Virus record (IMG/VR): IMGVR_UViG_3300030707_000003
DNA length: 64,000 nucleotides
DNA from: an uncultured virus (IMG/VR IMGVR_UViG_3300030707_000003)
Lineage: Duplodnaviria > Heunggongvirae > Uroviricota > Caudoviricetes
Direction: 5' to 3' (one strand)
The notes under the pieces are model-generated. The model saw only the letters and a program-made list of their open reading frames with translations, did no database searches and was not told where the DNA came from. Made by a program: the position numbers and the translations under genes. This document shows, piece after piece, positions 4,009-40,192 of this stretch (its first letter is position 1; the number at the start of each line of letters is the position of its first letter).

Positions 4009-4028
4009 GCGATTCTCCCTCCGGAGAG

Positions 4029-19409: not shown

Positions 19410-19707
19410 CGTCGATCCCCTCAGGCTCGGTAGCCGCCCCGCAGCGGGGACAGGCCGTGCTCCACGGCTGCCACAGCCTCGCCGGCTGGCAGGTCGTGCA
19501 CCAGCGGCCGTTCTTCTTCGCGCCCGTAACGTAGACCCCGCCGTCCGCGCTCACCAGCCCGGCCGTCCCGTTGCCCGGGATGGCGTCGATGGCCTTCGCG
19601 TGGTCGTCGGAGACCGTGATCCAGCCGCCCTCGCGGGCGGCCCGGTAGTGGGTGCCGTCCTCGAGGCGCAGACCCTGGCAGCCCGGCGGCAGGTTCACGA
19701 CGCGCAC
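19399..19707 (-). CDS. hypothetical zinc-ribbon protein
   Basis: GGAGG RBS; VNLPPGC...CTTC...CPRCG. Confidence 0.65.
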   Translation of the reverse strand: MRVVNLPPGCQGLRLEDGTHYRAAREGGWITVSDDHAKAIDAIPGNGTAGLVSADGGVYVTGAKKNGRWCTTCQPARLWQPWSTACPRCGAATEPEGIDGDS

Positions 19708-21149
19708 GGTGACCCACCTCCCGGCGGGAACGCCCGCAGCCACCCGTGCTGATGCCACAGCCGGGACCCCTCCGGGTAGTGCGGATGCCGCACCGTCTCC
19801 ACTGAGTACCCGGCGGCTTCCAGGATCGCGGCGCATTCCTGCCGCAGCCCGGCGCTGTGGAACTCGGTCAGCCACGACGCCCGGCCGGCCGCCAGGACAC
19901 CCGCGGCGCCGCGCAGCACAGCCGCCTCATGGCCCTCGGTGTCCACCTTCACCAGGTCCGGCAGGCCCTCGGCCGCCGCGATCTCGTCCAGCGTCAGGCA
20001 CGGCACGGCGACCTGCTCCGCGCCGGCGATGTCATCGCGCTCCCACACCTCGTGCCCGGGAGAGGTCAGCTGCGCGCCGGACAGGAACAGCGTCACCTTC
20101 CCCGCGTGGTCGGAGATGGCGACCTGCCGCACGTCCGCCCCTGGCACCGCGGCAGCCGCCGCGTAGCTCTCGGGCCACGGCTCGAACGACACGACGCGCG
20201 AGTACCGGGACGCCATGAACGGGATCGACTCGCCGCGGTGCGCGCCCACGTCGAACGCCAGTGCGCCGGACAGGCCGTCCCACAGCGCCGCGCCGCCCGG
20301 GTCGGTCACCGGGGGCGCCGGCGCTGCGGTCACCGGCGCGACCGGGGGCACGGACTCATCCGTGACGAGGCGGTAGGCCACCTTCCCGCGCCGGGCGCGG
20401 AACGTGGCGGTCTGCGTCTGCGCGAACCACGCCGGGTCGGAGCTTCCGGCCCAGCCCTCGTGCTGGCCGGTGTTCTGGGACCGCGACGCGTCCGGGACCA
20501 GGCACCTCATACCGTACTCCGGCAGGATCCGCAGCTGGACGTTCCAGTCGTACCCGGAGTCCATCGGGCCGCCGGAGTCGCACTCCCAGTCCCAGTGCGG
20601 CTCCAGGAAATGCTCCCACCGCTCGCGCCACGTCCCCCAGATCCACGGGTTGAAGTACGGCACCAGCCGGATGTTGCGCGGGTCGGCGGCGGGGTCCTGC
20701 GGCGGCGGCGGGTTGTCCCAGGCCTGCCCGTGCCGGTTGTGCGCCAGCGCGGCCAGCACGTCCGGCATCCCCGCGAACTGGTCCCGTGCCCACGCCATGT
20801 ACGCGAGCACGTCGTCGGAGACGGCGACGTCCTCCTCGCCGGACACCACGAACCCGATGCCCGGGTCGTCCCTGAAGATCGCTGAGATGGCCTCGCCGAT
20901 GGCGCGGTGCGGGCCGTTCGACAGCACCGCCCGGTGGGCCTGCGGCAGCACTTCCAGCGGGACGGGGAAGTGCGGGCGCATCCTGGTGATCACGTCCGAC
21001 ATCGCGGCGGTCCGGTCGGTCCGGCCCAGGGCGATCACGAACCGGGCCGGGGGGCAGATGGCGCAGGCTTTCGCCCAGGACTCCAGGACCGGCTCAAGGT
21101 AGAAGGGTCGTCTCCACGCCGTGAGCATAATCGCCGTCTTGTTCAACAA
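19695..21149 (-). CDS. GT-A glycosyltransferase fused to a FkbM-family methyltransferase
   Basis: GEEDV and PWIWGTW..RW motifs; FDVGAHRGES, LVKVDTEGHE..VLRGA. Confidence 0.85.
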   Translation of the reverse strand: MLNKTAIMLTAWRRPFYLEPVLESWAKACAICPPARFVIALGRTDRTAAMSDVITRMRPHFPVPLEVLPQAHRAVLSNGPHRAIGEAISAIFRDDPGIGFVVSGEEDVAVSDDVLAYMAWARDQFAGMPDVLAALAHNRHGQAWDNPPPPQDPAADPRNIRLVPYFNPWIWGTWRERWEHFLEPHWDWECDSGGPMDSGYDWNVQLRILPEYGMRCLVPDASRSQNTGQHEGWAGSSDPAWFAQTQTATFRARRGKVAYRLVTDESVPPVAPVTAAPAPPVTDPGGAALWDGLSGALAFDVGAHRGESIPFMASRYSRVVSFEPWPESYAAAAAVPGADVRQVAISDHAGKVTLFLSGAQLTSPGHEVWERDDIAGAEQVAVPCLTLDEIAAAEGLPDLVKVDTEGHEAAVLRGAAGVLAAGRASWLTEFHSAGLRQECAAILEAAGYSVETVRHPHYPEGSRLWHQHGWLRAFPPGGGSPCAS

Positions 21150-21156
21150 GCGCCTC

Positions 21157-21390
21157 CTACTGGCCGTTTCCGAACCCGAAGGCGCTGGCGGGTGCCGCAG
21201 CATGGGGTGCCCACCTGCGCTCGGTCCCCGCTGCCGTGTTGTTGATCTCCGTCTTGGCGGCCTGCTGCTGCGGGTCGCGGCAGGCGATGCGGACCACCGT
21301 GCCGAGCGCGGACCAGAACGTCATCCACTCGTCCTCGTCCAGTTTCGCGGCCACGTCAGCTAGCTCGGGCCAGGCCGGAAGCGCGGTCAT
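21157..21390 (-). CDS. hypothetical protein
   Basis: Start lies within the 42-bp repeat. Confidence 0.5.
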   Translation of the reverse strand: MTALPAWPELADVAAKLDEDEWMTFWSALGTVVRIACRDPQQQAAKTEINNTAAGTERRWAPHAAAPASAFGFGNGQ

Positions 21391-21420
21391 GCGCTCAAGT
21401 ATGCCCGCGCGGCCTGCGCC
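21379..21420. repeat. 42-bp direct repeat, copy 1
   Basis: AAGCGCGGTCATGCGCTCAAGTATGCCCGCGCGGCCTGCGCC, identical to 21772-21813. Confidence 0.95.
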
Positions 21421-21454
21421 GGGCATAACATGTGTTGCCAGCGCGTTCCAGCTA

Positions 21455-21474
21455 ACGTACAATTTCCTGTACGT
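21455..21474. promoter_or_regulatory. YefM operator-like palindrome
   Basis: ACGTACA-ATTTCC-TGTACGT upstream of yefM. Confidence 0.65.
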
Positions 21475-21485
21475 CAAGAGCAGGC

Positions 21486-21746
21486 GTGTGGTTGAAGACC
21501 ATAACCTACAGCGAGTCTCGGGCGCGATACGCCGAGACGCTGAACTCAGTCGTCGAGGACCGCGAGGAGGTCATCGTGACCCGCGCCGGGCATGACCCGG
21601 TCGTGATCGTCGCGCTGGACGACTATCAGTCTCTGCGGGAGACCGCCTACCTGCTCAGGAGCCCGCCCAACGCCCGCAGGCTGCTGGCGTCGATCGACCG
21701 GCTGGAGAACGGGGGCGGGGCGGAGCACGAGCTGGCCGACCCGTGA
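21486..21746 (+). CDS. yefM: Phd/YefM antitoxin
   Basis: TYSESRARYAETLNSV.EDREEVIVTR...SLRETAYLLRSP.NARRLLASI. Confidence 0.9.
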   Translation: MWLKTITYSESRARYAETLNSVVEDREEVIVTRAGHDPVVIVALDDYQSLRETAYLLRSPPNARRLLASIDRLENGGGAEHELADP

Positions 21747-21772
21747 AGCTCGTCTGGGACGAATCTGCCTAA
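21743..21772 (+). pseudogene. yoeB: truncated YoeB/Txe toxin (9 codons)
   Basis: GTGA overlap with yefM; MKLVWDESA then TAA at the edge of the repeat. Confidence 0.75.
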
Positions 21773-21813
21773 AGCGCGGTCATGCGCTCAAGTATGCCCG
21801 CGCGGCCTGCGCC
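21772..21813. repeat. 42-bp direct repeat, copy 2
   Basis: Identical to 21379-21420. Confidence 0.95.
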
Positions 21814-22564
21814 ACTCTTCCGGGCACCGCCGCTCGCGGATCATCTTCGGCCACGTCTGATCCACCTCAACCGGAACCACCGGGAGATGGCCCTCGCCAT
21901 TGCATCCCGTGCGCCAGCGCTCCCCGCTCGCGATCAGGTCACCTTCGGTTGTATCAAGCAGTTCAACATGACATGTGGCGGTTACCAGTTTCTCCCGCTG
22001 CCATTCGGGTCCGCCGGTCCAGCTAAAATGCCATCCGCCATCAGCGAGTACCGGATAGGAGTTCCTGCTGTCGCGCACGGCCGCCAGCGAGCCGCCGTGT
22101 CCGCGCAGGCAGGAGACCGTCGCGGCCACGCAAGTGGGCGGGATCAGGGACTGCGGGACTTCCCAGTCAACCGCGAACAAGGTCGTTCTCATTCTTGCCG
22201 AGATAGCGCCCGGGCCATTCCAGGAAAGCAATTCCGGCGACGGGATCTCATCGACATCACCGATGATCACAATATCGGTATCGTCAGCCCGCGCATCAAT
22301 GACCGGCCACGCCTGGTCACGCTGGTAATGCTCGCGGCCCCACGGCGGCAGGTCCGGCAGGTCCGCGACCACATGGATGATCCGGTCAGCCCACGGCGCG
22401 AATCGGTCGGCGTTCTCCTGGTAGCACAGCGGCTTGGGCACCCCGCGATGGGTCTGCGTCGCTTCAGCGATCACGTGGTGAGCCGGCCAGCCCTGCGTCT
22501 CCTCCAGCCGCATCTGAAGCATCGGAAGCTCGTCCCGGAACATCACCGGCAGCCAGATCGTCAC
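21788..22564 (-). CDS. glycosyltransferase, GT17-like
   Basis: IAEATQTHRG.PKP, REHYQRD, GDVDEIP, GGWHFSW. Confidence 0.85.
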   Translation of the reverse strand: MTIWLPVMFRDELPMLQMRLEETQGWPAHHVIAEATQTHRGVPKPLCYQENADRFAPWADRIIHVVADLPDLPPWGREHYQRDQAWPVIDARADDTDIVIIGDVDEIPSPELLSWNGPGAISARMRTTLFAVDWEVPQSLIPPTCVAATVSCLRGHGGSLAAVRDSRNSYPVLADGGWHFSWTGGPEWQREKLVTATCHVELLDTTEGDLIASGERWRTGCNGEGHLPVVPVEVDQTWPKMIRERRCPEEWRRPRGHT

Positions 22565-22670
22565 CGGCCGTCATCCCGTGGCAGCCGGGACTGGTCCGGG
22601 CCGCCCGGGCGGCCCGCGAGCAGGAACACCAGCCGCAGGTACAGCCAGTCTAGCAGGCGGTCCCGGATCG

Positions 22671-23657
22671 TCACCCGAACAGGCTAGCCCAGTCCAGCAT
22701 CGCCGACCCGAGACGCCGCCAGTACCCGGGCGGGGCCGGGACCGCGCACGCGCCCACGACGCCGGCGAGTTCCCGGTAGCACTCCGCCACGGACTCGCCT
22801 TCCAGGCGGGCGGAGGCGATCAGGGGCCACAGCCTCTCGTGCGCGGCCATGCCCGGCGCCTCAAGTTCCGCGTTGCGCCGGGGGTCCGACGCCCGGGAGT
22901 GCCGCACCGACGGGGAGCCCGAGGTGACCGCGTAGCCGAGATGGTCGCAGATCCGCTTGGCGAGCAGGCCGGCCCAGATGTCGTCGAACCGGTCGAAGCC
23001 GAACCGGTCCCCGGCGTCGTCCTGGCCCATGAGCAGCATGTACATCGCCGGGGTCATCTCGCGGCGGAACGCCAGGTTCATCACGCACATCGGGAACATG
23101 GCCCCGGTGGGGACCGGTCCGCGTTCCCGCGCCGGCGGCAGCCGGAAGTCGGGGTTGGCCAGCTGGGTGACGCCGTCCAGGTCCGGGACCTGTGACCACA
23201 GCCCGTGGTGAATCATGACCGGGCGCTTCGCCTCGCGGACGCCGTAGGGGAAGCCGCGCGGGTGCAGCCCGCCGATCGTGCTCCACCACGCGTCCGAGGG
23301 CGCGGCCCAGGCTAGGTTGCCCTCGATCCGGGCAAGGTAGGTGCCGCGCCGGGCGTCCTCGGGGTAGCAGTCGTCGTCCAGGGTCCAGATGACGTCCGCG
23401 CCGCCGTGGTACGCCAGCCAGAAGCCGTAGGAGCGGACGGCTGAGGTGCGGCGCGGGATGATCCGTGCCAGGTCCCCGAGATCCCGCTCTATGTCATCCC
23501 AGGCGTAGTGCTCGCAGCCGGCCGGGAGGCTGAACGTGCGCTCCGGGTTGTCCTCCACGACGATGACCCTTGCGCCGTCCAGGTCGTCTTTCCACTCGTG
23601 CAGGAACCTGCGGGCGCAGTCCTCCCGGATCGTCGGGACAACGACGGCGGTGCTCAC
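22671..23657 (-). CDS. RGP / UDP-arabinopyranose mutase-like protein (GT75)
   Basis: VVPTIR, DDDCYP, GLWSQVPDLD, FPMCVMNLAFRRE, FDDIWAG..KRICDHLG. Confidence 0.85.
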   Translation of the reverse strand: MSTAVVVPTIREDCARRFLHEWKDDLDGARVIVVEDNPERTFSLPAGCEHYAWDDIERDLGDLARIIPRRTSAVRSYGFWLAYHGGADVIWTLDDDCYPEDARRGTYLARIEGNLAWAAPSDAWWSTIGGLHPRGFPYGVREAKRPVMIHHGLWSQVPDLDGVTQLANPDFRLPPARERGPVPTGAMFPMCVMNLAFRREMTPAMYMLLMGQDDAGDRFGFDRFDDIWAGLLAKRICDHLGYAVTSGSPSVRHSRASDPRRNAELEAPGMAAHERLWPLIASARLEGESVAECYRELAGVVGACAVPAPPGYWRRLGSAMLDWASLFG

Positions 23658-24331
23658 AGGTGCTTCCCGCTGGCCTCGAGCCGCAGCCACCGGCTGGACC
23701 GGTACGCCGGCAGCCCGTCCCCCAGCCCCGGCAGCAGCGCCGGCCGCAGCCCCGTCAGCCGCAGCACGTACGGCTGGGACACCTGGTCCTGCGTCGACCA
23801 CAGGTCCGTCTCGGCCTGCCACCGCCGGCCCATGTCCCGGACCTGCGCGGTGTGGACCCGGGCGATCGCCGACGTGGACCACAGCCCCCAGCGCTCCGGG
23901 TGGCCCCTGGTCCGGTACCAGGCGGCCTGCTCGGCGATCGGCTCGCCGGCGTACTTCGGGATGCCCGGCGACACCGCCGCCTCATCGAACAGGCACGTCC
24001 GGTCGCTGTGCGGGAACTGCGCCAGCGGCCTCGCGCAAGCCATCACATCCGTGGCGAACGACGGGGACAGGACACGGTAGGACCCGTCGATCCAGATGCT
24101 CGCCGGGGCGTCCGTATACAGCCACGGGCGGAGCTTCGGCTTCTTCGCCGCCCGCATCGGGTCCATCCCCGGGTGCGGCTCGCGGATCACGTGCCAGCCC
24201 AGGTAGCCGTCCGGGACCTGCTCGTCGTCGGTGACCAGGATCCACTCGACATCGGCGCCGTCCTGCGGCAGCACCGGCTTGATCACGTCGTAGTTACCGT
24301 AGTTCGCGCTGATCACCGCGATGTCAGCCAT
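23654..24331 (-). CDS. DUF616-like glycosyltransferase
   Basis: SANYGNYD, K.PKLRP, SIWIDGS, H..R.CLFDEA, QDQVS. Confidence 0.8.
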   Translation of the reverse strand: MADIAVISANYGNYDVIKPVLPQDGADVEWILVTDDEQVPDGYLGWHVIREPHPGMDPMRAAKKPKLRPWLYTDAPASIWIDGSYRVLSPSFATDVMACARPLAQFPHSDRTCLFDEAAVSPGIPKYAGEPIAEQAAWYRTRGHPERWGLWSTSAIARVHTAQVRDMGRRWQAETDLWSTQDQVSQPYVLRLTGLRPALLPGLGDGLPAYRSSRWLRLEASGKHL

Positions 24332-24860
24332 TGGGCCGCGCGATCTCGCCGAGGCCGTACTGGCCGCCGTGCTCGGCCCACGTCCGGCCGGTCTCCGCGC
24401 AGAACGCGTCCAGCGCCTCCCGCACCTGCCACGGCCCTCCCGGCGGGTCGCCGAGGATCGTGTCGTGCAGCAGCACCGTGCCGCCCGCCGCGACCAGCGG
24501 CACGAACCTCCTGAGCTCGGCCAGGGTGTGGTCGTAGGCGTGGGACGTGTCGATGAACAGCACGCCGAACATCCGGTCCGGCAGCGGGATGGCCATGTCG
24601 TCGCCCTGGGTGAACGTCCACAGGCCGCAGGAGTACCAGTCATCCGGCACGTCCGGCTGGTTCACGTCAGCCGACCAGACGTGGCCGCCGGATACCTGCG
24701 CCCCGGCCAGCCACGCCGACGTGGAGTTCCCGCCCCGCACGCCGAGCTCCAGCACCGCAGCGCCGGGCCTTGAAGCGGCCTCGTCATGGAACCGCGGCAT
24801 GCAGTACTGCACGTCCGACCACGCGGCGAGCCGCGCCAGGTAGTCATCGCGGAGCGTCAT
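24324..24860 (-). CDS. class I SAM methyltransferase (Methyltransf_24-like)
   Basis: LELGVRGGNST, LFIDTSHAY, LLHD. Confidence 0.85.
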   Translation of the reverse strand: MTLRDDYLARLAAWSDVQYCMPRFHDEAASRPGAAVLELGVRGGNSTSAWLAGAQVSGGHVWSADVNQPDVPDDWYSCGLWTFTQGDDMAIPLPDRMFGVLFIDTSHAYDHTLAELRRFVPLVAAGGTVLLHDTILGDPPGGPWQVREALDAFCAETGRTWAEHGGQYGLGEIARPNG

Positions 24861-25542
24861 GCACTTTCCTGACGGTCTCGCTGTCGATGGCCCGCTGATG
24901 CTCCCGCCAGGCGAAGAACGCCCTCTGGTCGGCGTCCCACGAAGCGTAGGCGTCGGCGTACGTCGCGTCGTTGTCCCGGCCCGTCACCGAGGGGTGCAGG
25001 TGCTCGATGACCACGTCCGGCAGCAGGTACAGGCACCCGGCGTCCTTCCCCAGGTCCTCCCAGACGTTATCGGCATAAAAATGGCTTATGCCCGGAAGGC
25101 ACATCCACCCGAGCGCCGTGACGATCTCGCTGGAGATCACCGGGGCGGTCACCATGATCTGCCCATGCTGATTGCGGGGGTTCAGGTCGTCGCCGTAGGC
25201 GATACCGGGTCCGTTCTCGTCCAGCGCTCCCAGAAGTTTCGCGTCCCAGCCCGGCGTGCGCGGCTGGTGATCGTCGCCGAGGGAGGCCAGCGCCCGGTAC
25301 TCCCCGGCGAACATCATCGCCAGCCTGCTGGTCCACTCCGGCATGCCGAGTCGCGCGCCGGTCAGCCAGAACACGCGCTCGCGGCCCTCCAGCGCCCGGT
25401 AGCCCTCCAGCGACGGGTCGTCCTCGTCCAGGCCCACCACGACATCCGTCTGTGCCTCGGCCAGGCCCAGGGCCGCGTCCAGCATCGCCGCGAGCCGGTG
25501 CGGCCTGCCCCGCGACGGGACGATCACCAGCAGGTCACGCAT
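24844..25542 (-). CDS. GT2-like glycosyltransferase
   Basis: VIVPSRGRP, LGDDH, HFYADN, IEHLH. Confidence 0.85.
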   Translation of the reverse strand: MRDLLVIVPSRGRPHRLAAMLDAALGLAEAQTDVVVGLDEDDPSLEGYRALEGRERVFWLTGARLGMPEWTSRLAMMFAGEYRALASLGDDHQPRTPGWDAKLLGALDENGPGIAYGDDLNPRNQHGQIMVTAPVISSEIVTALGWMCLPGISHFYADNVWEDLGKDAGCLYLLPDVVIEHLHPSVTGRDNDATYADAYASWDADQRAFFAWREHQRAIDSETVRKVHDAPR

Positions 25543-26512
25543 GCAGTTCCGCCTTTACCTGATCGAAGGTCCAGGCGTAGGTCCGCTCCATGCCCTCGCG
25601 GAAGCTCACCTGCGGCTTCCATCCGACTTCGGCCGCGATGCGGCTGTCATCGGACGGCCTGCCGCCCACGCCCACCGGGCCGTCCGTGTACTTCCGCCCC
25701 ACCCGGTAGCCCGCGATGTCCTCGATCACCGACACCAGCTCGTCGATCGACGAGGTCTTCGGGCAGCCGACGTTCAGCGGCTGGCCGTAGTCCCCCGCCG
25801 TGATCGCCAGCGTCGCCGCGACCGCGTCATCGACGTAGGTGAAGGTCCGGCGGGCGGTGCCGTCGCCCCACACCTCGATCTCGGCCGCGCCCGTGAGCTT
25901 CGCGACGGCGACCTTGCGGCACAGCGCGGTCGGCGCCTTCTCCCGGCCTCCCCTGTACCAGCCCGCCGGGCCGTAGACCGAGAAGTAGCGCCCGATGCGG
26001 ACTTCCAGGCCGAAGTCCTCCGCGAACGCCAGGAACAGCTTCTCGGCGAACAGCTTCTCCCACCCGTAGCCCTGCTCCGGGTCGATGGCGTTGGCCGCCA
26101 GGTCGTCCTCCCGCAGCGGCGGGGTGTCCGGGCTCACCTGGATGTGCAGCGGATACGCGCAGGAACTGCTCGCGAAGTAGATCCTCGCCCCGGCGACGTA
26201 CGCGGCCCTGGCCATCGTCGCGTCGGCCAGGATGTTCAGCATGCAGTCGGCGTGGTGATAGGAGATGTAGCCCATGCCGCCGGAATCGGCCGCGAGATGG
26301 TAGATCACATCGCAGCCGTCGGCGGCGCGCTGCGCGCTCCCGCGCTGCGACAGGTCGCAGCGATCCCGGTTGTCCGCATCCGGGTGGACCTGCTTCCACT
26401 CGCCCAGCGGCCGGATGTCCGCCGCACGGACCTCATCACCGTGATCCAGCAGGGCCCTGATCAGGTGGCCGCCGATGAAACCGCCGCCTCCGGTGATCAG
26501 GGCGCGCATCAT
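25535..26512 (-). CDS. NAD-dependent sugar epimerase (GDP-mannose 3,5-epimerase-like)
   Basis: TGGGGFIG, HLAADSGGMGYI, YGWEK, GGREKAPTALCRK. Confidence 0.9.
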   Translation of the reverse strand: MMRALITGGGGFIGGHLIRALLDHGDEVRAADIRPLGEWKQVHPDADNRDRCDLSQRGSAQRAADGCDVIYHLAADSGGMGYISYHHADCMLNILADATMARAAYVAGARIYFASSSCAYPLHIQVSPDTPPLREDDLAANAIDPEQGYGWEKLFAEKLFLAFAEDFGLEVRIGRYFSVYGPAGWYRGGREKAPTALCRKVAVAKLTGAAEIEVWGDGTARRTFTYVDDAVAATLAITAGDYGQPLNVGCPKTSSIDELVSVIEDIAGYRVGRKYTDGPVGVGGRPSDDSRIAAEVGWKPQVSFREGMERTYAWTFDQVKAELHA

Positions 26513-27649
26513 GATCCTCCCGGTATCAGCTCTTTGAGCGCGACGGCCCAGTAATCCGCGTACACGCGGTCAGCATCGTAGCGCTGGGCGAAGGCGACGG
26601 CCTGCTCCCGCTTCCCGGCGGCCTTCTCGTATGCCTGCTCGTACGCCTGCGTGATGGATGAGATGAACGGAACGCGCCAGAAAGCGTCGTGGCCCCTGTT
26701 GAACGCCGGCTGGCCCTGCACCAGCCACCCGGCGCCGCACAGCTCCGTCATCGACGAGCAGTCCGTCACCGCCACCGGCGTGCCCACGGCGAGGGACTGC
26801 AGGATGGCCAGCCCGAACCCCTCCCCGTAGGAGCAGTTGGAGCACAGGTCCAGGAGGCCGTGCCAGTCCGCCATCTGGGACTCCGGGATCAGCCCGGCCG
26901 CGATCTGGTACTGGTCCCCGACCATCACCTGACGGCCGATGCCCAGCTCGCCGATCAGCTTCGCGAGGTTCACGCCCTGCCGGGTCTGCGCCCGGGAGTG
27001 GATCAGCATCAGCGCGTCGTCGTGGCGCTTAGCGAACTGCGCGAACGCGGCGAGCTGCTCCCCGAAGCCCTTGCGGAACGGGTCCTGGTTCGCGGCGTTG
27101 ATCCCGATCACGAACCGGCCGTCCATGCCCAGCGCCTGCCGGGCGGCCTTCCGGTCCGCCAGCGGCTTCCACACGGACAGATCGAGCGCGTGCGGGGCAT
27201 ACAGGGCGTCGTAGCCCGCGTCCCGCAGCATCGCCTCCCCAAACCGGGACATGGCTACCGGCCTGCCGGGGCCGGCGTCGAGGATCCGCCGGTCCATCGA
27301 CCCCAGCGGGGAGCAGTCCACCGGCATCCAGTGCGCCACGTTCATCCCGGCGAGCCGGGCCGGGTCCAGGATCCACGCGTCCATCAGCGTGATCAGCAGG
27401 TCGGCCCGGAAGTGCTGGTAGTGCAGCGGCAGGATGTCCTGGGAGTACGCGTCCTCGGACGAGCCGGGGTAGGTGACGACCCCGTCCGGCCCGGTGATCG
27501 GGATGCCCTGCAGCCCGTGGAACGCGGCGAAGGCCACCTCATGGCCGTTCTTGCGCAGCACGCGGGCGAGCAGGTCACCCTGCGTTCCGTAGCCAGCCCT
27601 CTAAAGAGGGGCACCAGGGCGCGTTCCCGTACACCAGTAGCCGACTCAT
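26509..27649 (-). CDS. GT4-like glycosyltransferase with a 10-nt gap (27604-27595) requiring net +1 recoding
   Basis: MSRLLVYGNAPWCPS [TTAGAGGGCT] GYGTQGDLLARVLRK; C-terminal GEGFGL...GTPV. Confidence 0.8.
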
Positions 27650-27749
27650 ATAAGCATCACCCCCCGGCGGGCGGCAGTTACCGCCCCAGGATGCCCGCAG
27701 TCCTGCGGGCTCACGGGCATGGACATCAGGGCCGGAGCGGGGCCGCCGG

Positions 27750-28055
27750 CTAGAACCCGGTCTGTCCCGTAGCGGTGCTGAGCAGCCACGCCACGGAGGC
27801 GGTCCCCGAGCCCGTGATCGCCGTCACCGAGCCGCCGAGCCCGCCCGGGTAGCCCTGCAGCACCATCGGGGGCACCAGGCCGGAGGGCAGCGGGAAGCCG
27901 TTCAGCGTGGTCAGCGACCCCGGCCCGGCGATCCCGATGTACACCGGCGACGCCGTGCCGGCGTTGGCGAGCTGGAGCTGGCAGTCACCGGGGGGCATCA
28001 CGCACACCGGCGACGCCGACCCGGACACCGCCTGCCGCTGCCCCCCGGTGATCAC
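27750..28055 (-). CDS. small virion / head decoration-like protein
   Basis: GTGA overlap; beta-rich; NAGTASPVYIG. Confidence 0.55.
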   Translation of the reverse strand: MITGGQRQAVSGSASPVCVMPPGDCQLQLANAGTASPVYIGIAGPGSLTTLNGFPLPSGLVPPMVLQGYPGGLGGSVTAITGSGTASVAWLLSTATGQTGF

Positions 28056-28489
28056 CTGATGACCATGTAGGAGATCAGGTACGACGCCCCGGACGCGGGC
28101 GCGCCGCCCTGGACCACGAACCCCTTGCCCGTGACCGAGACCGCGCCGCATCCGAACGCCACCGTCCCGGCGGTGTACCCGGCATCCACGACCACCGCCG
28201 ACGGGGCGGCGGCCAGCGGCTGGCCGAACGTCACCGAGCACAGCGACCCGCCGGCGATCGACGCCGTCCCCGCGTTCAGGACGAACGACCCGGCCTGGTC
28301 ATACCCGATCTGCGCGGTGACCGACCCGACCGTCCCGGCGCCCGGCAGCAGCGCCACCGTGGGCACGTTCCCGGCCGCGGCGATCCCGTTGTAGGTCGTG
28401 ATCTGGCCGCCGAACGCCGTCGGCAGCGGCTCGGAATGCTGGCCGATCAGCGCCTGGCCCGGGATGTACGGCTTCGACGGGGGCGCCAT
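28052..28489 (-). CDS. small virion protein
   Basis: Gly/Ala/Thr-rich; in the post-capsid chain. Confidence 0.6.
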   Translation of the reverse strand: MAPPSKPYIPGQALIGQHSEPLPTAFGGQITTYNGIAAAGNVPTVALLPGAGTVGSVTAQIGYDQAGSFVLNAGTASIAGGSLCSVTFGQPLAAAPSAVVVDAGYTAGTVAFGCGAVSVTGKGFVVQGGAPASGASYLISYMVIR

Positions 28490-28490
28490 C

Positions 28491-28865
28491 TCAGATCACC
28501 GTGGCCGGGCTGAGCGTCGCCAGGCCCGCGACCGTCGAGGACACCGCGCCGGACCCGGCGGTCTGCGCCCAGATCTGCCCCGTCGTCGCCGTCCCGGCCG
28601 TCACGCTGTAGCCGTAGAAGATCAGCGAGCCGCCCGGCTGGATCTGCGCGCCGGTCGTGCCGTTCGCGGAAGCGGACCCCATCCCGGCGTAGACCGCCGA
28701 CGCCCCGGTGTTGATCACCACGACGTCCTTCAGGACGGTCCCCGCCGGGAAGGAGCCGAGCGGGCCGAACGCGGTGCCGCTGGTGTTCGCGGGATTGAAG
28801 ACGATGCTCGCGGTGCCGGTGACGGCACCATTCACTTGCTGGATGCTCGAGAAAAGCTGGGGCAC
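28491..28865 (-). CDS. head decoration-like protein
   Basis: GGAGCCGT-GTG start; first gene after the capsid. Confidence 0.6.
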   Translation of the reverse strand: MPQLFSSIQQVNGAVTGTASIVFNPANTSGTAFGPLGSFPAGTVLKDVVVINTGASAVYAGMGSASANGTTGAQIQPGGSLIFYGYSVTAGTATTGQIWAQTAGSGAVSSTVAGLATLSPATVI

Positions 28866-29038
28866 ACGGCTCCGATCTTGCTGTTCTGGCGGCACGGTGC
28901 CGCGCGCTGGATGGTGCGGGCGACGAGCGGAAGCCCTGCGAGCCTGAGCCGGGCCGGGAGCGCATTCGGGGGTGTCTCCCGGCCCGGCCCAGTCATGTCA
29001 CTCGCCGTCACTGTCTGTTGTGTGACGACTACGGGGAG

Positions 29039-32000
29039 TTACGAGAACGGGGCGGAATCGCTGTTCTGGAGTCCGCCGAGGTGCGCGCTGTACATCGGGG
29101 CATGTGCGACAAGTGCCTCGAAGCATAGCAGACTATACCTCCAGGTGACATCGATCGCGGGCCACGCCAAACTGACGTAATCCTGACATGTCGAGACTTC
29201 CCACGCATTCGCGACATTCGTCCACGACTGGGGGAGCTGGTAGGACAGGAGGGTCGCGTTCCCCTGCGGGTAGAAGGGATGCACGACCATCTTCAGGATC
29301 GACCGGGTCAGCGGGTTCTGGAACTGGGAGACGGCCGCGCCGACGGTGACGTCGCCGACCTCGCCCTGCTTGATGAACAGCTCGTAGGCGGTGCCGGTGC
29401 CCTGGGAGATGACGTCCTGGGACAGGTTCGCCAGGTCCGACCCGCTGGAGATGATCTCCGCCGGGTCGGCCTTGAACGCCCCCGGCGAGATGCCGGGGCT
29501 GTCGAACAGGGCCTTCAGCGCGGTGTAGATGGTGTTGTAGTTGAAGTGCAGGCCGACGCCGCCGTTGTAGTACCCGCCCTGCCAGCCGCTGGGATACACG
29601 CCAGCCTGCTGGGAAAGGCCGGACAGGACCGGGATGACGCCCTCGATGCGGGTGCCCTTGCCGGTGCCGCTGTCAGCGGTCGGCTGCGTGCTCGCCGCGG
29701 GAAGCGTCCCGCCCTGCAGGGTGTACTTCACCCCGCCGCAGGTGGCCAGCAGGTAGTAGGTGGAGGAGACCAGGCCCCAGATGCTGTACTGCATCGCGCC
29801 CGCGGACGGGGCGATCGTCACGTCCACGACCTGGCCCGCGCTGACAGTCACCGCGGTGCTCCCGGAGACGGCGGTGGTGCCGAAGTAGTTCGTGGCCGCG
29901 ACCAGGACATGGTCGACGGTGGTGTTCAGCGCAGTCTCGTTGCTCTGCGCGTTCCGGACGGTGCAGGTCGGGGCAGCCGGCGTCGCCAGGTTCTGCGCAG
30001 AACCGGCGATGATGGCGTACTCCTCGGCGAGCATCCGATTTGTTACTCTCTGCCCCTTTTGGCAGAGGGACGGGTCATTTCTGCCCGTCTCTTACGCTTT
30101 CGTCGTAAGACCCGACTATATCTTCACCCGCGTGGGGTGCTCCGTGCATAGTCTGTGAACCATCGCGTCGGCCGCAAGGCCAGGCGCGCTCGGCTGCTGA
30201 TTGCCCCTCAAGCGGCATGAAGCCGCCGCGATCTTCTCGGACCGTCGCGCCCGCCCTTTCGGGCCACGCTGTGGTGATCGCGGGTGACACGGGCGTTCCA
30301 GCAATTCTCGGAGTTTATTGCCCGCCTGTTGCCAGGCGGCGGAGACGATCGTCAGAAAATCTCCTGAAGCATAATCAGGTTGGCTCACTGTTGTTACTCA
30401 CTGCCAGCGCCGAGATGATGCGGCGTCGGCAGCGGGCCAGGCCGTTTCTGTTCCGCCTAGCTCCGCGCCTTTGTCATTGAACGCGGGTCGGACCATGTCA
30501 TGATCTGACTACTGCGAGCCGGGAAGGCTGCCGCGAGGACGGGCGCCGCCCTGCGGGCGCATCGGAATGCCGCGCCGGCGCATCTCCAGCATGACGTACG
30601 AGCGGCTTACCCCGTAGGAGCCGGCCACCTGCTGCGCGTTCATCCCTGAGTTGTACCGGTCGGCGAGATCGGCCATCCCGGGCATGACGCGCTTGTTGTT
30701 GACCGTTTCGGGATGCTCGTGCATCCACTTCCCGTAGCACTCTGAACTGCAGAAACGCGCAGGCTTGCCGCCGTTCCGCTTATGGAACGTGACGGGTGCG
30801 CCGCACTGCTCGCACCCGATGGTCGCCGGGCCGCCGCCCCAGTTGGGGTTGAGCGCACCAACGTGGCCATCGCGGTTCAGCCGGATCAGCACGGTAGGCG
30901 CGGCCTCTGGCACGAGGCCGTTCTCCCTCATCACCCGCCGCACTGCGGCGTCGGGATCGGTGCGCGCCTGATGGTTGCTGAACCAGTAGACCCGGTAGCC
31001 CGCGGCTTGCAGCGCTGCCGTCTTGCGCTCACGGCGCAGTGCGGCCCGCGTCTCGCCGGGGCTGTTGGTCACCTCGATGACGACCGGTTTCTGCTTCAGT
31101 TCGATGTCCGCCTCGTACCTGTCCCCAGCCGGGTGAGACTGCGTCTCGAAGCTGAGGCGAGCGCGGATGAGTGCCTGATGGAACATTGCCTCACACGGCG
31201 TGTTGATCACACTGGTGCTCGCTGGCTGGCGGGCATCCGCGCAGTCCGCGGGAGGGTATTCCAGCTCGTCAGATCCCCTGCGTATGGCCTCTACGGCTCG
31301 CCCGCTGCGTAGCGGGATTGCCTCGGCGTTACCCATGGTCCTGATGATATCAAATCAGGGTGAAGGGCTTTCACCGATACAGCAGGGTTATTCACTCGCG
31401 CGTCACCGCGCGAGGCCCCAGGTCAGTTTAGGGCGCTGATGTCCTCGTAACCCTGGCCGGCGAACTGCGCCAGCCACGAGAGCTGCTCGGTGACGCCGTA
31501 GAAGCGGTAGGGAATGTCAAGCGTGACCACGGTCTGCGATCCAGCCGGGGGCAGGTTCAGCGGCCAGTTCCCGAAGGAGCCGCCCTGCTGCACCATCTCC
31601 GACAGGGACGCGTCCAGCACGCCCTGGCCCCCGGTCTGGGAGCCCGAGATGCCGGTGATCAGGCGCTCGAGGACCGACGCGCCCATGCCGGGCGGCCGGG
31701 GGAACTTGTTGCGGTAGCGATTTCTGTTGCCTCTCGCCATCAGGCGAGCGGGCTGGTCATTTCTGCCAGCCTCCTGCACTTTTCCATCGTGCAGGTCCGG
31801 ACTGTCTCATGCTCTGCGGCCGGGCACCAGCAATGCCCCTGATGAATCGTCCTTTGCAGAGCCCGCACGTACAGTCTCTACGCCGCCACGGGCATCGTGG
31901 CGGACCGGGATTCCCCTTGGGATCGGCGGGGTTCCCCGGGCAGTGCGGTTGGCATCCGCAGATCACTCTGCGGAGCCGCCTAAACGACGGTATAGACCGG

Positions 32001-33882
32001 GTAGATGAGACGCGACGTCTCTTGTTACTTCGGCCCGGTCAGGCCGGGCTACCTCGTTTCCGGGTAGCTCCGGACATTACTGCCCGGATCGGACTGTGAC
32101 ACTATCTGGTTACTGCGGATCCGGAGAATTGCGCTCGCGATGACCGCGCCCGCTGATACCCATCCGGGCCATGGCCCTCTGGACGGTATGGAGCGAGACG
32201 CCGTAGTATGCCGCGAGTTCCCGCTGCGTCATGCCGCTGGCATAAAGCGCGGGGACTTCGCTCAGGTCGATCTTGAGCCGCCGGTTGCTGGCCCCGGGAT
32301 GCTCCCTGAGCCAGTCTCCGTAGCACTTCGAGTTGCAGAACCGCTTCTTCATCTGCATCCGGTGGGCGTTCCGCTGCGTCTCTGCGCCGCACTGCTCGCA
32401 GCTGACGGTGACGGGGCCGCCGCCCCAGTTCGGGTTCTCCGGTCCCATCATGCCGGTGCGGATGTCGGCTACCGGGTCGGCGTCGGAAACGAGCCCGCAC
32501 GCCTCGATGACCTCTGCCACGCACTGGTCGGCACCGCGGTTGATCCGCGATCCCGTGAACCGGAAGACCCGGTAGCCGGCCACGGCGAGATTCGCGTCGC
32601 GCTCTGCGTCCTGCTCTTTGCGCAGGCTGTGGAGCGCGCCGTCCGCCTCGATGATGACCCGGGCTTGCTGAAGAAGGATGTCCACGCAGTACCGGCCCAG
32701 CAGGACGCGCTGGGTTGAGAAGCTGAGGCCGGCTTTCATGAGTGCTGCCTGGAGCAGTTTCTCAAGGGGCGAGTTTGCTGATGGTCCCCGCATCGTCGGG
32801 AGACGCTTCAGCAGGTTCTCGCGGTTCTTGGCTCGCCACTCGGGACGGTCGACCGCCGCGCGATGTGCTGCGCGCCGCTCATCGGTCCACTCGTAGCCCT
32901 CTGGCAGCCCGGTCGGGCGGGGCGTCACGCCGAGACGCCTCATGGCGTTCTGCACGGCGTGGACGCTGCACCCGTAGCGAGCGGTCAGTTGTTCGTAGGT
33001 CATGCCGCTCGCGTACAAGGCGGGAAGCCCGGACCAGTCGATCAGGAGTGACCGGCCTTCCGGCTTCGGATTGATGCCCTGCCGCTTGGCTTCCTGCGCG
33101 ACGTACCCCTTGGATACGCCGTATTCGGCTGCCACGGCTGAATATGAGCCAAGGCGCTCGTAGTCCGCCTTGAGATTGCTCCAGTCCACCAGATACCCCT
33201 GCGTTCAGTCTCTACCGCCGCCCGGCTACGTGCCGGGCCGCATCGGCGTCGTCCTCAGATCACTATACCGGTTACTTCAGTCCGGTGTCGTGCGTAGGAG
33301 TTCCGCCGAACGGCAGGGGTTATTCGACGTACCTCGCGGTACGAAGGCCCTCGCGTTCTAAGGCGCGAGCAGGTTGACGGGAACAAGGCCGTAGACGGAG
33401 CCTAGTCCCACGTTGCCTGCAGTGAAGGAGCGGACGAGGTCAGGCGCGGCCACCCCGAGATAGGGCGACAGGGCCTGCGCCATGGACTCGGCCATGGAGG
33501 GCTGGAGCAGCGCGGTCTTCAGCGCCCCGTACTGGGTGAGCCAGCCCTGGTTGAGCTCGGACACGACGGCGGACTTGGCGCGGAAGCCCTTCCAGGTCTC
33601 GGTGCGCAGGTCCACGGCCGCCTGGGCCGAGCGGGTCATGATGTCGGCGTGGTTGGTCAGGGGCTGGTTGGCGCCCTGGCCGCGCATGCCCGCGCCCTTG
33701 ACCAGGGACGGCATGCGGGACTTGATCGCCTCGCCGATGTTCGCGCCGGAGGCGTAGCGGTTCGGGACGCCGGCGTCGCCGTAGCGCGCCTGGGTCAGCG
33801 GGTCCATGGCGAGGGGGGTGCCCATCGCCGCGATCCCCGTGCGGGGATCCTCTACCTGGATGTCTTCGATGAGAGCCGCCAC
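29039..33882 (-). CDS. major capsid protein, 5 exons: 33882-33361, 32015-31987, 31717-31430, 30385-30359, 30035-29039 (620 aa spliced)
   Basis: Exons join in frame (1863 nt): LLAP|SRLIYPVYTV|YRNKFPR...DISAL|ANLIMLQEM|MLAEEYAII; follows the protease/scaffold gene. Confidence 0.85.
30036..30358 (-). ncRNA. group I intron 4 (no ORF, 323 nt)
   Basis: P AATTGCTGGAA, Q AATCAGCAG, R GTTCACAGACTA, S AAGATATAGTCG; P1 GGAGAU/GUCUCC; terminal G. Confidence 0.92.
30386..31429 (-). ncRNA. group I intron 3 (1044 nt) with endonuclease ORF
   Basis: P1 GCCCU/GGGGC; GTATCGGTGAAAGCC...GGTAACGCCGAG; R GTAGAGGCCAT pairing with S GACATGGTCCG; terminal G. Confidence 0.85.
30509..31336 (-). CDS. intron-encoded DUF559/Vsr-like endonuclease with zinc finger and HTH (possibly degenerate; start uncertain)
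   Basis: TPCE..F, RYEADI, VIEV, AGYRVYWF, NPNWGGG, CEQC..FCSSEC. Confidence 0.75.
   Translation of the reverse strand: MGNAEAIPLRSGRAVEAIRRGSDELEYPPADCADARQPASTSVINTPCEAMFHQALIRARLSFETQSHPAGDRYEADIELKQKPVVIEVTNSPGETRAALRRERKTAALQAAGYRVYWFSNHQARTDPDAAVRRVMRENGLVPEAAPTVLIRLNRDGHVGALNPNWGGGPATIGCEQCGAPVTFHKRNGGKPARFCSSECYGKWMHEHPETVNNKRVMPGMADLADRYNSGMNAQQVAGSYGVSRSYVMLEMRRRGIPMRPQGGARPRGSLPGSQ
31718..31986 (-). ncRNA. group I intron 2 (no ORF, 269 nt)
   Basis: P1 CCGU/GCGG; ACTGCCCGGGGAAC...AATCCCGG; R GTAGAGACTGT; S GAGACAGTCCG; terminal G. Confidence 0.88.
32016..33360 (-). ncRNA. group I intron 1 (1345 nt) with endonuclease ORF
   Basis: P1 GCCU/GGGC; P10 ACGCGA pairs with exon 2 TCGCGT; R GTAGAGACTGA; S TCACAGTCCG; terminal G. 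Confidence 0.9.
32110..33189 (-). CDS. intron-encoded DUF559/Vsr-like homing endonuclease with HTH repeats and zinc finger
   Basis: SPLEKLL, RYCVDI, IIEADGALH, DAERD, GYRVFRF; three HTH-like segments. Confidence 0.85.
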   Translation of the reverse strand: MDWSNLKADYERLGSYSAVAAEYGVSKGYVAQEAKRQGINPKPEGRSLLIDWSGLPALYASGMTYEQLTARYGCSVHAVQNAMRRLGVTPRPTGLPEGYEWTDERRAAHRAAVDRPEWRAKNRENLLKRLPTMRGPSANSPLEKLLQAALMKAGLSFSTQRVLLGRYCVDILLQQARVIIEADGALHSLRKEQDAERDANLAVAGYRVFRFTGSRINRGADQCVAEVIEACGLVSDADPVADIRTGMMGPENPNWGGGPVTVSCEQCGAETQRNAHRMQMKKRFCNSKCYGDWLREHPGASNRRLKIDLSEVPALYASGMTQRELAAYYGVSLHTVQRAMARMGISGRGHRERNSPDPQ

Positions 33883-40145: not shown

Positions 40146-40192
40146 GCGTTCCCCCCGGAACCTCCCTTAGCGCCGCGCCCAGGGGACCCCGG

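What the first reader, a model, noticed from the sequence alone, without database searches (positions are those of the whole stretch)
27595..27649. Candidate UUA-triggered ribosomal bypass (10-nt gap) at the head of the glycosylation cluster
Seen: ATG 27649 reads MSRLLVYGNAPWCPS, then TTAGAGGGCT, then GYGTQGDLLARVLRK in the frame of the GT4 ORF. Removing exactly these 10 nt restores the NAPW.PSGYGTQ motif typical of this phage GT family. The gap begins with an in-frame TTA and folds with the take-off region (CCCTC-TTTA-GAGGG). Read straight through, the frame stops at TGA 9 codons after TTA. Known: UUA is the rarest codon in high-GC actinomycetes (bldA-dependent in Streptomyces), and UUA-associated bypassing has been proposed for some Streptomyces phages. 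Inference: full-length enzyme is made only when tRNA-Leu(UAA) is scarce, linking virion glycosylation to host state. Take-off TCT and landing GCT match imperfectly.
Basis: partly seen in the sequence, partly recalled or inferred. Interest (0 to 1): 0.85.

Follow-up and report, generated by a model that had tools for sequence, protein, structure and literature searches.

The report
Ribosome-hop gap in phage glycosyltransferase gene
A sugar-transferase gene of an uncultured high-GC phage is broken after codon 15 by ten extra bases that start with the phage's rarest codon, and similarly built breaks at the same spot in eleven related phages suggest that ribosomes hop over them rather than that the gene is dead.

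Summary
On the minus strand, ATG 27649 opens 15 codons. Ten bases follow (27604-27595, TTA first), and the GT4 frame then runs on to 26509. Deleting them gives a 376-aa protein with the invariant GYG..Q motif placed as in all intact homologues. The insert is no artefact: it is identical in 9 contigs of two collections and in contigs of three further studies.

Among 114 distinct homologous gene heads, 11 lineages are frame-broken and one carries an in-frame insert, all within the first 16 codons. Inserts are 4-10 nt. All 12 start with TTA or TGA. In 7 of 12 the last triplet is a synonym of the codon before the insert. None of the 114 has a stop in the next 320 codons.

This is the architecture of the phiHau3 terminase gaps, the published candidate for UUA-triggered bypassing. 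Six of 11 broken lineages, against 0 of 92 intact ones, have an HNH endonuclease gene directly upstream, as in T4 gene 60/mobA; the window does not. The scan noted such gaps before on other DNA.

Best reading: a 10-nt translational hop (0.62). Weak points are the imperfect landing codon (TCT/GCT), a shallow clade and an unknown host. The host-state regulation idea is untested.

The parts
27657..27665 (-). Shine-Dalgarno-like GGGGGGTGA, 7 nt before the ATG
   Evidence: Sequence. Broken relatives carry a longer anti-SD match than intact ones; the window's own exact match is only 6 nt (GGTGAT).
27605..27649 (-). ORF part 1: ATG plus 14 codons, MSRLLVYGNAPWCPS (strand beta-1 and loop of the GT-B N-domain)
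   Evidence: Aligns with residues 1-15 of the homologues. In the AF2 model of homologue P0002, beta-1 is residues 3-9 and the loop is 10-15.
27605..27607 (-). Proposed take-off codon TCT (Ser), a rare codon here
   Evidence: TCT is 28 of 1,043 Ser codons.
27595..27604 (-). 10-nt coding gap TTAGAGGGCT, absent from all intact homologues
   Evidence: Pairwise DNA alignment with sister L040 shows a clean 10-nt gap.
27602..27604 (-). TTA, zero-frame codon 16, which would sit in the A site at take-off
27601..27603 (-). TAG in the +1 frame, which closes the GT frame to a simple +1 slip at TTA
   Evidence: Sequence. The GT frame opens only at 27600 (stop-to-stop ORF 26509-27600).
27597..27610 (-). Hairpin CCCTC-TTTA-GAGGG that encloses the take-off codon and the first 8 gap bases
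   Evidence: MFE and centroid. Not better than shuffles. AGAGGG is the reverse complement of the preceding CCCTCT.
27595..27597 (-). Proposed landing triplet GCT (2 of 3 positions like TCT)
   Evidence: It is the first xCT triplet downstream that puts GGC 27594 in the A site.
26509..27594 (-). ORF part 2: 361 codons plus stop, GYGTQ... to the end of the GT4 enzyme
   Evidence: PF13692 32.8 bits, PF00534 26.6 bits. 70-72% identity to the 376-aa homologues.
27575..27577 (-). Zero-frame stop TGA; standard reading ends in a 24-aa peptide
27559..27561 (-). GTG, the first canonical start in the GT frame. It equals residue 27 of the full protein, lies inside helix alpha-1, and has no SD at normal spacing.
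   Evidence: The invariant G16, Y17 and Q20 lie upstream of it.
19695..26512 (-). Downstream glycosylation cluster: epimerase/dehydratase, PHROG glycosyltransferase, methyltransferase, RGP-like and GT17-like transferases, FkbM methyltransferase
   Evidence: Pfam and PHROGs.

Best explanation
The gene encodes one 376-aa GT4 glycosyltransferase whose mRNA carries a 10-nt untranslated gap after codon 15.

Proposed mechanism. Ribosomes start at ATG 27649 and reach TCT with peptidyl-tRNA-Ser in the P site. They meet UUA, the phage's rarest codon, in the A site and wait. A fraction of them release the P-site codon, slide 10 nt and re-pair at GCU (27597-27595). They resume at GGC and make the normal enzyme. 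The rest read UUA and stop after 24 residues. A +1 slip at UUA would run into UAG at once.

Shown: the anatomy, its fixation in nature, the conservation of the junction, and the recurrence of the same design in relatives and in phiHau3.

Inferred: the hop itself, its efficiency and its purpose.

The purpose may be immunity of a homing-endonuclease cassette's target site, with the endonuclease since lost here. It may instead be down-tuning or conditional expression of the enzyme.
For: 1. A precise 10-nt excess at a junction where G16, Y17 and Q20 are invariant in 37 homologues. The gap lies between the beta-1 loop and the N-cap of alpha-1 in a pLDDT 94.5 model, so extra residues or an N-terminal truncation are unlikely to be harmless.

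2. Of 114 distinct homologous gene heads (169 loci), 11 lineages are frame-broken and 1 has an in-frame insert. All lie within the first 16 codons. None of the 114 has a stop in the following 320 codons.

3. All 12 of 12 inserts begin with TTA (10) or TGA (2). The frequency of those triplets in these loci is 0.0175.

4. In 7 of 12 the last insert triplet is a synonym of the preceding codon (ACT/ACC three times, ACC/ACC, TCT/TCC, AGT/AGC, CTT/CTC). Chance per site is 0.0285, giving P = 1e-8.

5. On the tree the broken rows are scattered, each next to intact sisters. Both halves keep conserved residues in their different frames.

6. The phiHau3 terminase gaps, read here from the record, have the same build: GGC/10 nt/GGT and TCT/10 nt/TCC, both TTA-led. 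For these a junction peptide and a full-length product are reported (PMC10732093, passages and section 3.4 read).

7. The window's insert is stable: 9 identical contigs; a 5,480-nt contig of an RNA library with 0 differences; and contigs from two other studies with 0 gaps, one of them with 5 substitutions in 268 nt.

8. TTA is the rarest codon. The +1 frame is closed by TAG.

9. Broken alleles have stronger SD matches than intact ones (Mann-Whitney p = 5e-8). That would fit compensation for a low-yield hop.
Against: - The landing triplet GCT matches TCT at only 2 of 3 positions, with a first-position G against the anticodon's A.
- The window clade is shallow: three alleles, at most 6 of 350 residues apart. 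Persistence under selection since the insertion is therefore not shown.
- The enzyme is accessory, so a recently broken gene could survive for a while.
- No endonuclease gene is adjacent here, and the window's own exact SD match is only 6 nt.
- The hairpin is not statistically notable and is not shared by all relatives.
- No protein, Ribo-seq or raw-read evidence exists. The RNA-library contig does not prove transcription, and contigs cannot show minority alleles.
- The host and its tRNA-Leu(UAA) supply are unknown.
Confidence: 0.62

Rival explanations
1. The gene is simply broken. A 10-nt insertion inactivated an accessory glycosyltransferase recently. It could be a template-switch copy of the neighbouring CCCTCT, or debris left by a homing-endonuclease cassette. 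Only the 24-aa peptide is made, and the rest of the ORF has not yet had time to decay.
For: The clade is shallow, at most 6 of 350 residues apart. The landing codon is imperfect. AGAGGG in the insert is the reverse complement of the preceding CCCTCT, as a snap-back mutation would give. No adjacent endonuclease and only a modest SD. Five of 12 lineages lack a matched landing codon.
Against: A random insert would rarely put the rarest codon in frame at its first position; the triplet frequency is 0.0175 for TTA plus TGA. The same design recurs 12 times at this spot and nowhere else in 114 genes. The six differences of allele P0129 mostly go to residues seen in homologues. The insert persists across peat, freshwater and lake samples of 2017-2022.
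Confidence: 0.27
2. Ribosomes read UUA and then shift +1 within GAG GGC T, giving a 377-379-aa enzyme with one to three extra residues in the loop before GYG.
For: A 10-nt insert equals three codons plus one base. Relative L012 carries an in-frame 6-nt insert that would add two residues if read straight.
Against: The +1 frame is closed by TAG until 27600, and no slippery or re-pairing codon follows. Loop length is constant in all 101 intact gene heads seen. A frameshift model does not explain the matched take-off and landing codons, nor the mix of 4-, 5-, 6-, 7- and 10-nt inserts.
Confidence: 0.06
3. Translation restarts at GTG 27561 and the 350-aa product works on its own or together with the 24-aa peptide.
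For: Gene callers annotate exactly this 350-aa ORF: cluster P0001, 13 members, with the representative on 34 contigs.
Against: That product lacks beta-1, the loop and most of alpha-1, including the invariant G16, Y17 and Q20. There is no SD at normal spacing. The 11 codons between the gap and the GTG keep the conserved residues although they contain no start codon.
Confidence: 0.03
4. Sequencing or assembly artefact.
For: None beyond the fact that all sources are short-read assemblies.
Against: The same 10 nt occur in 9 contigs of two collections and in Logan contigs of runs from three further studies.
Confidence: 0.01

Closest known systems
UUA-led 10-nt coding gaps in the large terminase gene of Streptomyces phage phiHau3 (g6/g7/g8), and the 7-nt gaps of the StrepC.1 and S. 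catenulae prophages (Smith et al. 2013 as cited in, and Antonov et al. 2023 = PMC10732093)
   Same: A frame-breaking block of 10 nt with TTA as its first zero-frame codon, a stop soon after, flanks that abut in homologues, a highly conserved junction, and a high-GC phage that otherwise avoids TTA. The phiHau3 g7/g8 site even uses the same take-off codon, TCT.
   Different: Here the gene is a glycosyltransferase and not an essential terminase. The gap is at codon 16, not mid-gene. The landing triplet is GCT and not a synonym (phiHau3: GGC/GGT and TCT/TCC). The host is unknown. Relatives also use UGA and gaps of 4-7 nt, and often carry an HNH endonuclease gene next door. I saw no such link in the parts of that paper I read.
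Phage T4 gene 60 50-nt bypass with the MobA homing endonuclease cassette (Manning and Atkins, bioRxiv 10.1101/2022.08.31.505936; abstract and sections 7 and 12 read)
   Same: [quoted passage not shown] Linkage to a free-standing HNH endonuclease is seen in relatives, with repeated insertion at one site of one gene. Some copies keep the bypass after losing the endonuclease, as the window may have done.
   Different: The gap is 10 nt, not 50. No nascent-peptide signal or take-off stem-loop with tetraloop has been shown. The gene is not split into two ORFs with added tails. There is no sequence homology. The window has no adjacent endonuclease.
Short spontaneous or engineered hops over stop or hungry codons in E. 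coli (Weiss et al. 1987; Gallant, Lindsley; known to me only from the reference list of PMC10732093 and from recall)
   Same: Peptidyl-tRNA re-pairs to a like codon a few bases downstream when the A-site codon is slow to decode. The 5- and 6-nt inserts of relatives (ACC TG ACC, ACT TTA ACC) have exactly this form.
   Different: Those are low-level events in test constructs. Here the design is fixed in natural genes.
Byps of Magnusiomyces capitatus mitochondria (Lang et al. 2014, cited in PMC10732093; recalled)
   Same: Many natural, mobile, translationally bypassed inserts with matched codons.
   Different: 27-55 nt long, in a mitochondrial system, and unrelated in sequence.

Membership tests
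UUA-led short coding gap read by translational bypassing (phiHau3 terminase type) | A short frame-breaking block absent from homologues, whose flanks abut in them | tested here: met
   a clean 10-nt excess against sister L040 and against all 14 fetched full-length proteins.
UUA-led short coding gap read by translational bypassing (phiHau3 terminase type) | TTA is the first zero-frame codon of the block and is very rare in the genome | tested here: met
   5 of 16,765 codons, the rarest sense codon.
UUA-led short coding gap read by translational bypassing (phiHau3 terminase type) | Zero-frame stop shortly after the block | tested here: met
   TGA nine codons after TTA.
UUA-led short coding gap read by translational bypassing (phiHau3 terminase type) | A junction so conserved that added residues are unlikely to be tolerated | tested here: met
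   G16, Y17 and Q20 invariant, N9 and G18 at least 90%, in 37 homologues. Constant spacing in 101 intact gene heads.
UUA-led short coding gap read by translational bypassing (phiHau3 terminase type) | A landing triplet that the take-off tRNA can read (typical of the family; both phiHau3 sites have it) | tested here: inconclusive
   Window: TCT against GCT, 2 of 3 positions. phiHau3: GGC/GGT and TCT/TCC. In the GT family, 7 of 12 are matched.
UUA-led short coding gap read by translational bypassing (phiHau3 terminase type) | A contiguous product with the junction peptide | not testable with these tools
   Needs a reporter assay or mass spectrometry.
UUA-led short coding gap read by translational bypassing (phiHau3 terminase type) | A host in which charged tRNA-Leu(UAA) is limiting | not testable with these tools
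   The host is unknown and the window's own assembly is not held. The only tRNA gene in the window is tRNA-Met.
T4 gene 60 / MobA-type endonuclease-borne bypass cassette | A free-standing HNH homing endonuclease gene next to the gap | tested here: not met
   Window: no hit for the ORFs at 27750-28895. Met in 6 of 11 broken relatives against 0 of 92 intact ones.
T4 gene 60 / MobA-type endonuclease-borne bypass cassette | A roughly 50-nt gap with a take-off stem-loop, an internal SD and a nascent-peptide signal | tested here: not met
   The gap is 10 nt. The hairpin is present but not notable. The peptide signal was not tested.
Programmed +1 frameshift (prfB/RF2 type) | A P-site codon that re-pairs in +1, with an open +1 frame at the shift site | tested here: not met
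   the +1 triplet after TCT is CTT for re-pairing, and the next +1 codon is TAG.
GT4 (GT-B fold) glycosyltransferase | Pfam group-1 glycosyltransferase domain above the curated cut-off, and a GT-B fold | tested here: met
   PF13692 32.8 bits (cut-off 27) and PF00534 26.6 bits (cut-off 26.4). Model of the 70%-identical P0002: pLDDT 94.5. Best Foldseek hits are the PBCV glycosyltransferase 3oy2, MshA, BshA and PimA.

The most novel reading that the evidence does not exclude
Short-range ribosome hopping may be a common, portable device of high-GC soil and freshwater phages. In this reading a cassette repeatedly invades the head of this glycosyltransferase gene. The cassette consists of a free-standing HNH endonuclease gene, a near-perfect Shine-Dalgarno sequence, its own copy of the first 8-15 codons, and a 4-10-nt gap. 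The gap starts with UUA or UGA and ends in a copy of the take-off codon.

The gap would make the carrier immune to its own endonuclease without changing the protein. The strong SD would pay for the low yield of the hop, and trailing ribosomes queuing at codon 16 might even push the stalled one forward. The window would be a hit-and-run survivor that kept the gap after losing the endonuclease.
Probability: 0.4. Interest if true: 0.85.

Novelty: new member of a known kind. Interest (0 to 1): 0.72.

Why it matters
Natural translational bypassing is known from very few systems: T4 gene 60, yeast mitochondrial byps, and a handful of Streptomyces phage terminase genes that are still called candidates.

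This locus and its 11 differently built relatives form a natural mutational series. Gap lengths run from 4 to 10 nt, the A-site codon is UUA or UGA, and the landing codon is matched or near-matched, all in one small, non-essential, easily assayed enzyme. That makes the rules of short hops directly testable.

The link with HNH endonuclease genes ties the Streptomyces-type UUA gaps to the gene 60/MobA logic. It also offers an explanation other than host-state sensing.

In practice, gene callers truncate all these genes (350 aa instead of 376), so such enzymes are mis-annotated in databases.

Tried and rejected
- **Close relatives in cultured phages.** Megablast of the locus against 50,697 phage records gave no match. 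tblastn found only three distant cultured-phage homologues.
- **Own assembly.** It is not held. The nearest record, G001, is a 31-kb fragment identical at the site.
- **Other hops in the window.** A scan for in-frame TTA after 12 or more open high-GC3 codons gave 26 candidates. The scan did not return the finding's own TTA at 27604, so it is not a sensitive test. Those I inspected were antisense or out of frame, for example 38224 (GTT ACC in ORF 37914-40166) and 49247/49232 (GGT TAC and GCT TAC in ORF 49172-49543). UGA-led gaps were not searched for.
- **Hairpin as a signal.** It is no more stable than shuffles, and it is not shared by all 14 sites folded.
- **Selection within the window clade.** Only three alleles exist, at most 6 residues apart, and no DNA is available for the variants, so dN/dS was not possible.
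- **Careful tree.** It did not finish in time, so a quick IQ-TREE was used. L067 (partial) and rows shorter than 300 aa were left out.
- **Genome contigs.** Only 2 true orthologues were found (L197, L198), both intact. The other 78 loci are distant GT4 genes and were not examined for gaps.
- **Sequencing runs.** X14 covers only 26523-26704 and says nothing about the gap. All four runs are contigs, so minority gap-less alleles cannot be excluded. The RNA-library contig does not prove transcription.
- **Earlier scan notes.** Searches by sequence and by place gave nothing.
- **Literature.** Searches with 'translational bypassing + phage + Streptomyces' (5 papers) and 'bypassing + UUA + glycosyltransferase + phage' (0 papers) found no report of this gene family. 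The supplements of PMC10732093 were not opened.
- **Loci not examined.** Loci whose match lacked the gene's head were left out: L054, L066, L071, L080, L087, L089, L091, L093, L095-L100, L102 and L104-L116.

Full report
**What is in the window**

On the minus strand a Shine-Dalgarno-like GGGGGGTGA (27665-27657) precedes ATG 27649. The ATG opens MSRLLVYGNAPWCPS, whose last codon is TCT at 27607-27605. The next ten bases are TTAGAGGGCT (27604-27595).

From GGC 27594 another frame reads GYGTQGDLLAR. It runs on through the 350-aa ORF that a mechanical ORF list starts at GTG 27561 and ends at 26509. Read straight on, the first frame stops at TGA 27577-27575 after 24 residues. The second frame is closed upstream by TAG 27603-27601.

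The ORF carries group-1 glycosyltransferase domains above Pfam's cut-offs. It heads a run of sugar-modifying genes from 19695 to 26512: an epimerase, further transferases and methyltransferases. One addition: because CT flanks the insert, its borders can slide by two bases.

**It is a real insert at a conserved junction**

A protein search gave 1,010 relatives among 8,000 scored candidates. The best full-length ones are 372-376 aa, and all 14 that I fetched read NAPxxPSGYGTQ or close variants without interruption. Removing 10 nt gives exactly 376 aa.

In an alignment of 37 full-length homologues, G16, Y17 and Q20 are invariant, and N9 and G18 are nearly so.

An AlphaFold model of the 70%-identical P0002 has pLDDT 94.5. 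It puts beta-1 at residues 3-9, a loop at 10-15 and helix alpha-1 at 16-30. Its fold matches GT4 enzymes such as MshA, BshA and PimA. The gap therefore sits exactly between the loop and the glycine-rich helix cap. A start at GTG 27561 (residue 27) would delete beta-1, the loop and most of alpha-1.

The insert is not an assembly error:
- It is identical in 5 IMG/VR contigs from five samples and in 4 metagenome contigs.
- It is present in a 5,480-nt contig of an RNA library with 0 differences.
- It is present in a 499-nt contig of a freshwater run from another study with 0 differences.
- It is present in a 268-nt contig of a lake run, with 5 substitutions and no gap.

No run showed the ten bases left out. 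All of these are contigs, however, so they cannot reveal rare alleles or prove transcription.

**Codon context**

The window is 70.5% G+C. In 58 ORFs with 16,765 codons, TTA is the rarest sense codon: 5 occurrences against 872 CTG. At least two of the five are out of the real frame. TCT is also rare, 28 of 1,043 Ser codons. The only tRNA gene in the window is tRNA-Met.

**The break recurs in relatives**

I fetched homologous loci from viral, metagenome and genome collections. Every one whose match included the gene's head was inspected: 169 loci with 114 distinct junction regions.

Eleven lineages are frame-broken and one has an in-frame insert. In each entry below, the codon before the insert comes first, then the insert, then the codon at which reading would resume.

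| Lineage | Junction | Insert length |
|---|---|---|
| window clade | TCT / TTAGAGGGCT / GGC | 10 |
| L011 | ACT / TTACC / GGG | 5 |
| L061 | ACT / TTACC / GGG | 5 |
| L045 | TCC / TTACC / GGC | 5 |
| L138 | AGT / TTAGC / GGT | 5 |
| L067 | TCT / TTACTCC / GCT | 7 |
| L189 | CTT / TTAGCCGCTC / AAA | 10 |
| L021 | ACC / TGACC / GGC | 5 |
| L028 | ACC / TGAAGCT / GGG | 7 |
| L012 | ACT / TTAACC / GGT | 6, in frame |
| L055 | AAT / TTAGC / TCT | 5, six or seven codons further upstream |
| L124 | AAT / TTAC / GCC | 4, same upstream site as L055 |

Pairwise DNA alignments with the nearest intact sisters show clean gaps of the stated lengths. None of the 114 genes has a stop in the 320 codons after the junction. 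Disruption is therefore confined to the first 16 codons.

On a quick maximum-likelihood tree of 54 rows the broken rows are scattered, each beside intact sisters. That means many separate gains or transfers. The loci are 57-71% G+C, and TTA is rare in all that I tallied.

**The inserts look designed for hopping**

- All 12 begin with TTA or TGA. The frequency of those triplets in the same loci is 0.0175.
- In 7 of 12 the last three bases of the insert are a synonym of the codon before it. The same offset inside the same genes gives such a match at 2.85% of positions, so 7 or more of 12 has P = 1e-8.
- In 9 of the 10 TTA cases the preceding codon ends in T. Where a match exists, the landing codon ends in C. 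That suggests take-off from a wobble pair and landing on a stronger one; this is my inference.

A frameshift model does not explain matched codons. It also does not explain the mix of insert lengths that shift the frame by +1, by -1 or not at all.

**Comparison with the published case**

The phiHau3 record shows GGC/TTACTCCGGT/AAG and TCT/TTAACGGTCC/ACG in its terminase region. Both are 10-nt, TTA-led gaps with synonymous take-off and landing codons. Antonov et al. 2023 (PMC10732093; abstract, section 3.4 and search passages read, supplements not opened) report several things:
- These blocks are absent from counterpart phages.
- A full-length product is seen in Streptomyces.
- With UUA changed to UAA, a junction peptide is found by mass spectrometry in E. 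coli.
- A +1-frame stop inside the gap does not lower recoding.

The window's site has the same take-off codon as phiHau3 g7/g8. It naturally carries a +1-frame stop at the start of the gap.

**Link with homing endonucleases**

Earlier notes of this scan on other DNA gave this lead. I tested it here.

A gene matching PHROG HNH-endonuclease families at E of 1e-26 or lower lies directly upstream of the glycosyltransferase in 6 of 11 frame-broken lineages: L021, L061, L124, L138, L055 and L067.

For comparison I took the 92 intact distinct loci with at least 800 nt of upstream sequence. I scanned 147 of 167 upstream ORFs. Twenty were dropped because they were the transferase itself or its antisense. 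Nine loci were left out for lack of upstream sequence. None of the 92 has such a gene at E of 1e-5 or lower. Fisher's exact test gives p = 3e-7.

The window, L011, L028, L045 and L189 show none, and L045 has little upstream sequence. L012 was scanned with Pfam only.

In two close pairs the 45 nt before the gap are much less alike than the gene body. For L021/L034 it is 28 of 40 against 139 of 150. For L028/L026 it is 27 of 38 against 135 of 150. This is what one would expect if the gene's head came in with a cassette.

Broken alleles also have longer matches to the anti-SD complement. Seven of 12 lineages have 9 nt or more, against 1 of 101 intact gene heads (Mann-Whitney p = 5e-8). The window's exact match is only 6 nt.

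This parallels T4 gene 60. There the bypass insert protects the carrier from its own MobA endonuclease, and some phages keep the bypass after losing the endonuclease (bioRxiv 10.1101/2022.08.31.505936; abstract and sections 7 and 12 read).

The window does hold two endonuclease-like ORFs 3-5.5 kb upstream: 30509-31336 (weak) and 32110-33189 (DUF559 plus HTH, with PHROG HNH families). They are not adjacent to the gap.

**Verdict for the window**

The most likely reading is a 10-nt translational hop from TCT to GCT, triggered by a slow UUA. It would yield the normal 376-aa enzyme at reduced efficiency.

What weakens it:
- The landing triplet is only a 2-of-3 match.
- The hairpin is statistically unremarkable.
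- No endonuclease gene is adjacent.
- The clade is so shallow (three alleles, at most 6 residues apart) that selection since the insertion cannot be measured.

A recently broken accessory gene therefore remains a serious rival.

The UGA-led relatives and the endonuclease link point to another origin.

Two searches found nothing in print on this gene family. Similar gaps were noted before by this scan in portal, neck, nuclease and terminase genes and in another transferase gene on other DNA. One of those notes was later marked as partly fallen.

Noticed in passing
window 32110-33189 (-) and 30509-31336 (-): Two endonuclease-like ORFs lie near the capsid-region genes. The first has DUF559 (1e-16), an HTH domain and PHROG HNH-endonuclease families. 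The second has only weak DUF559/HNH hits. They may be free-standing homing endonucleases with targets of their own. I did not check the neighbouring genes for UGA-led gaps.
   Followed up: partly
L021 against L034 and L028 against L026, the 45 nt before the gap compared with the gene body: Identity drops to about 70% in the first 15 codons but is 86-97% downstream. This looks as if the gap-bearing alleles received a foreign gene head. The numbers are small (38-40 nt).
   Followed up: partly
5' leaders of the broken alleles (L021, L067, L189, L028, L045, L011, L124): Near-perfect extended Shine-Dalgarno AAGGAGGTGAT, often followed by GC and then 4-7 nt to the start. Only 1 of 101 intact gene heads has a match of 9 nt or more. 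This could reflect common cassette ancestry or compensation for a low-yield hop.
   Followed up: partly
L012 (= L127) 2917-4098: An in-frame variant, ACT TTA ACC GGT. Read straight it adds Leu-Thr before GYG. A 6-nt hop from ACT to ACC would give the standard protein. It is a natural test of whether hopping occurs when the frame does not demand it.
   Followed up: no
window 21486-21746 (+): A Phd/YefM-type antitoxin ORF (PF02604, 2e-19) sits on the opposite strand inside the glycosylation cluster.
   Followed up: no
window 37914-40166 (-): A 750-aa Ala/Gly/Ser/Thr-rich ORF with many GSLTA-like repeats, probably a fibre or decoration protein.
   Followed up: no
L021, L028, L026, L034, L011, L124, L128: In many relatives the transferase is fused to a C-terminal methyltransferase domain (FkbM or Methyltransf_24) in ORFs of 540-648 aa. 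In the window these are separate genes.
   Followed up: no
window 27605-27649 (-): The 15-codon head uses AGT, CTA and TCT, and TTA follows directly as codon 16. These are four of the twelve rarest codons of the window, within 16 codons.
   Followed up: no
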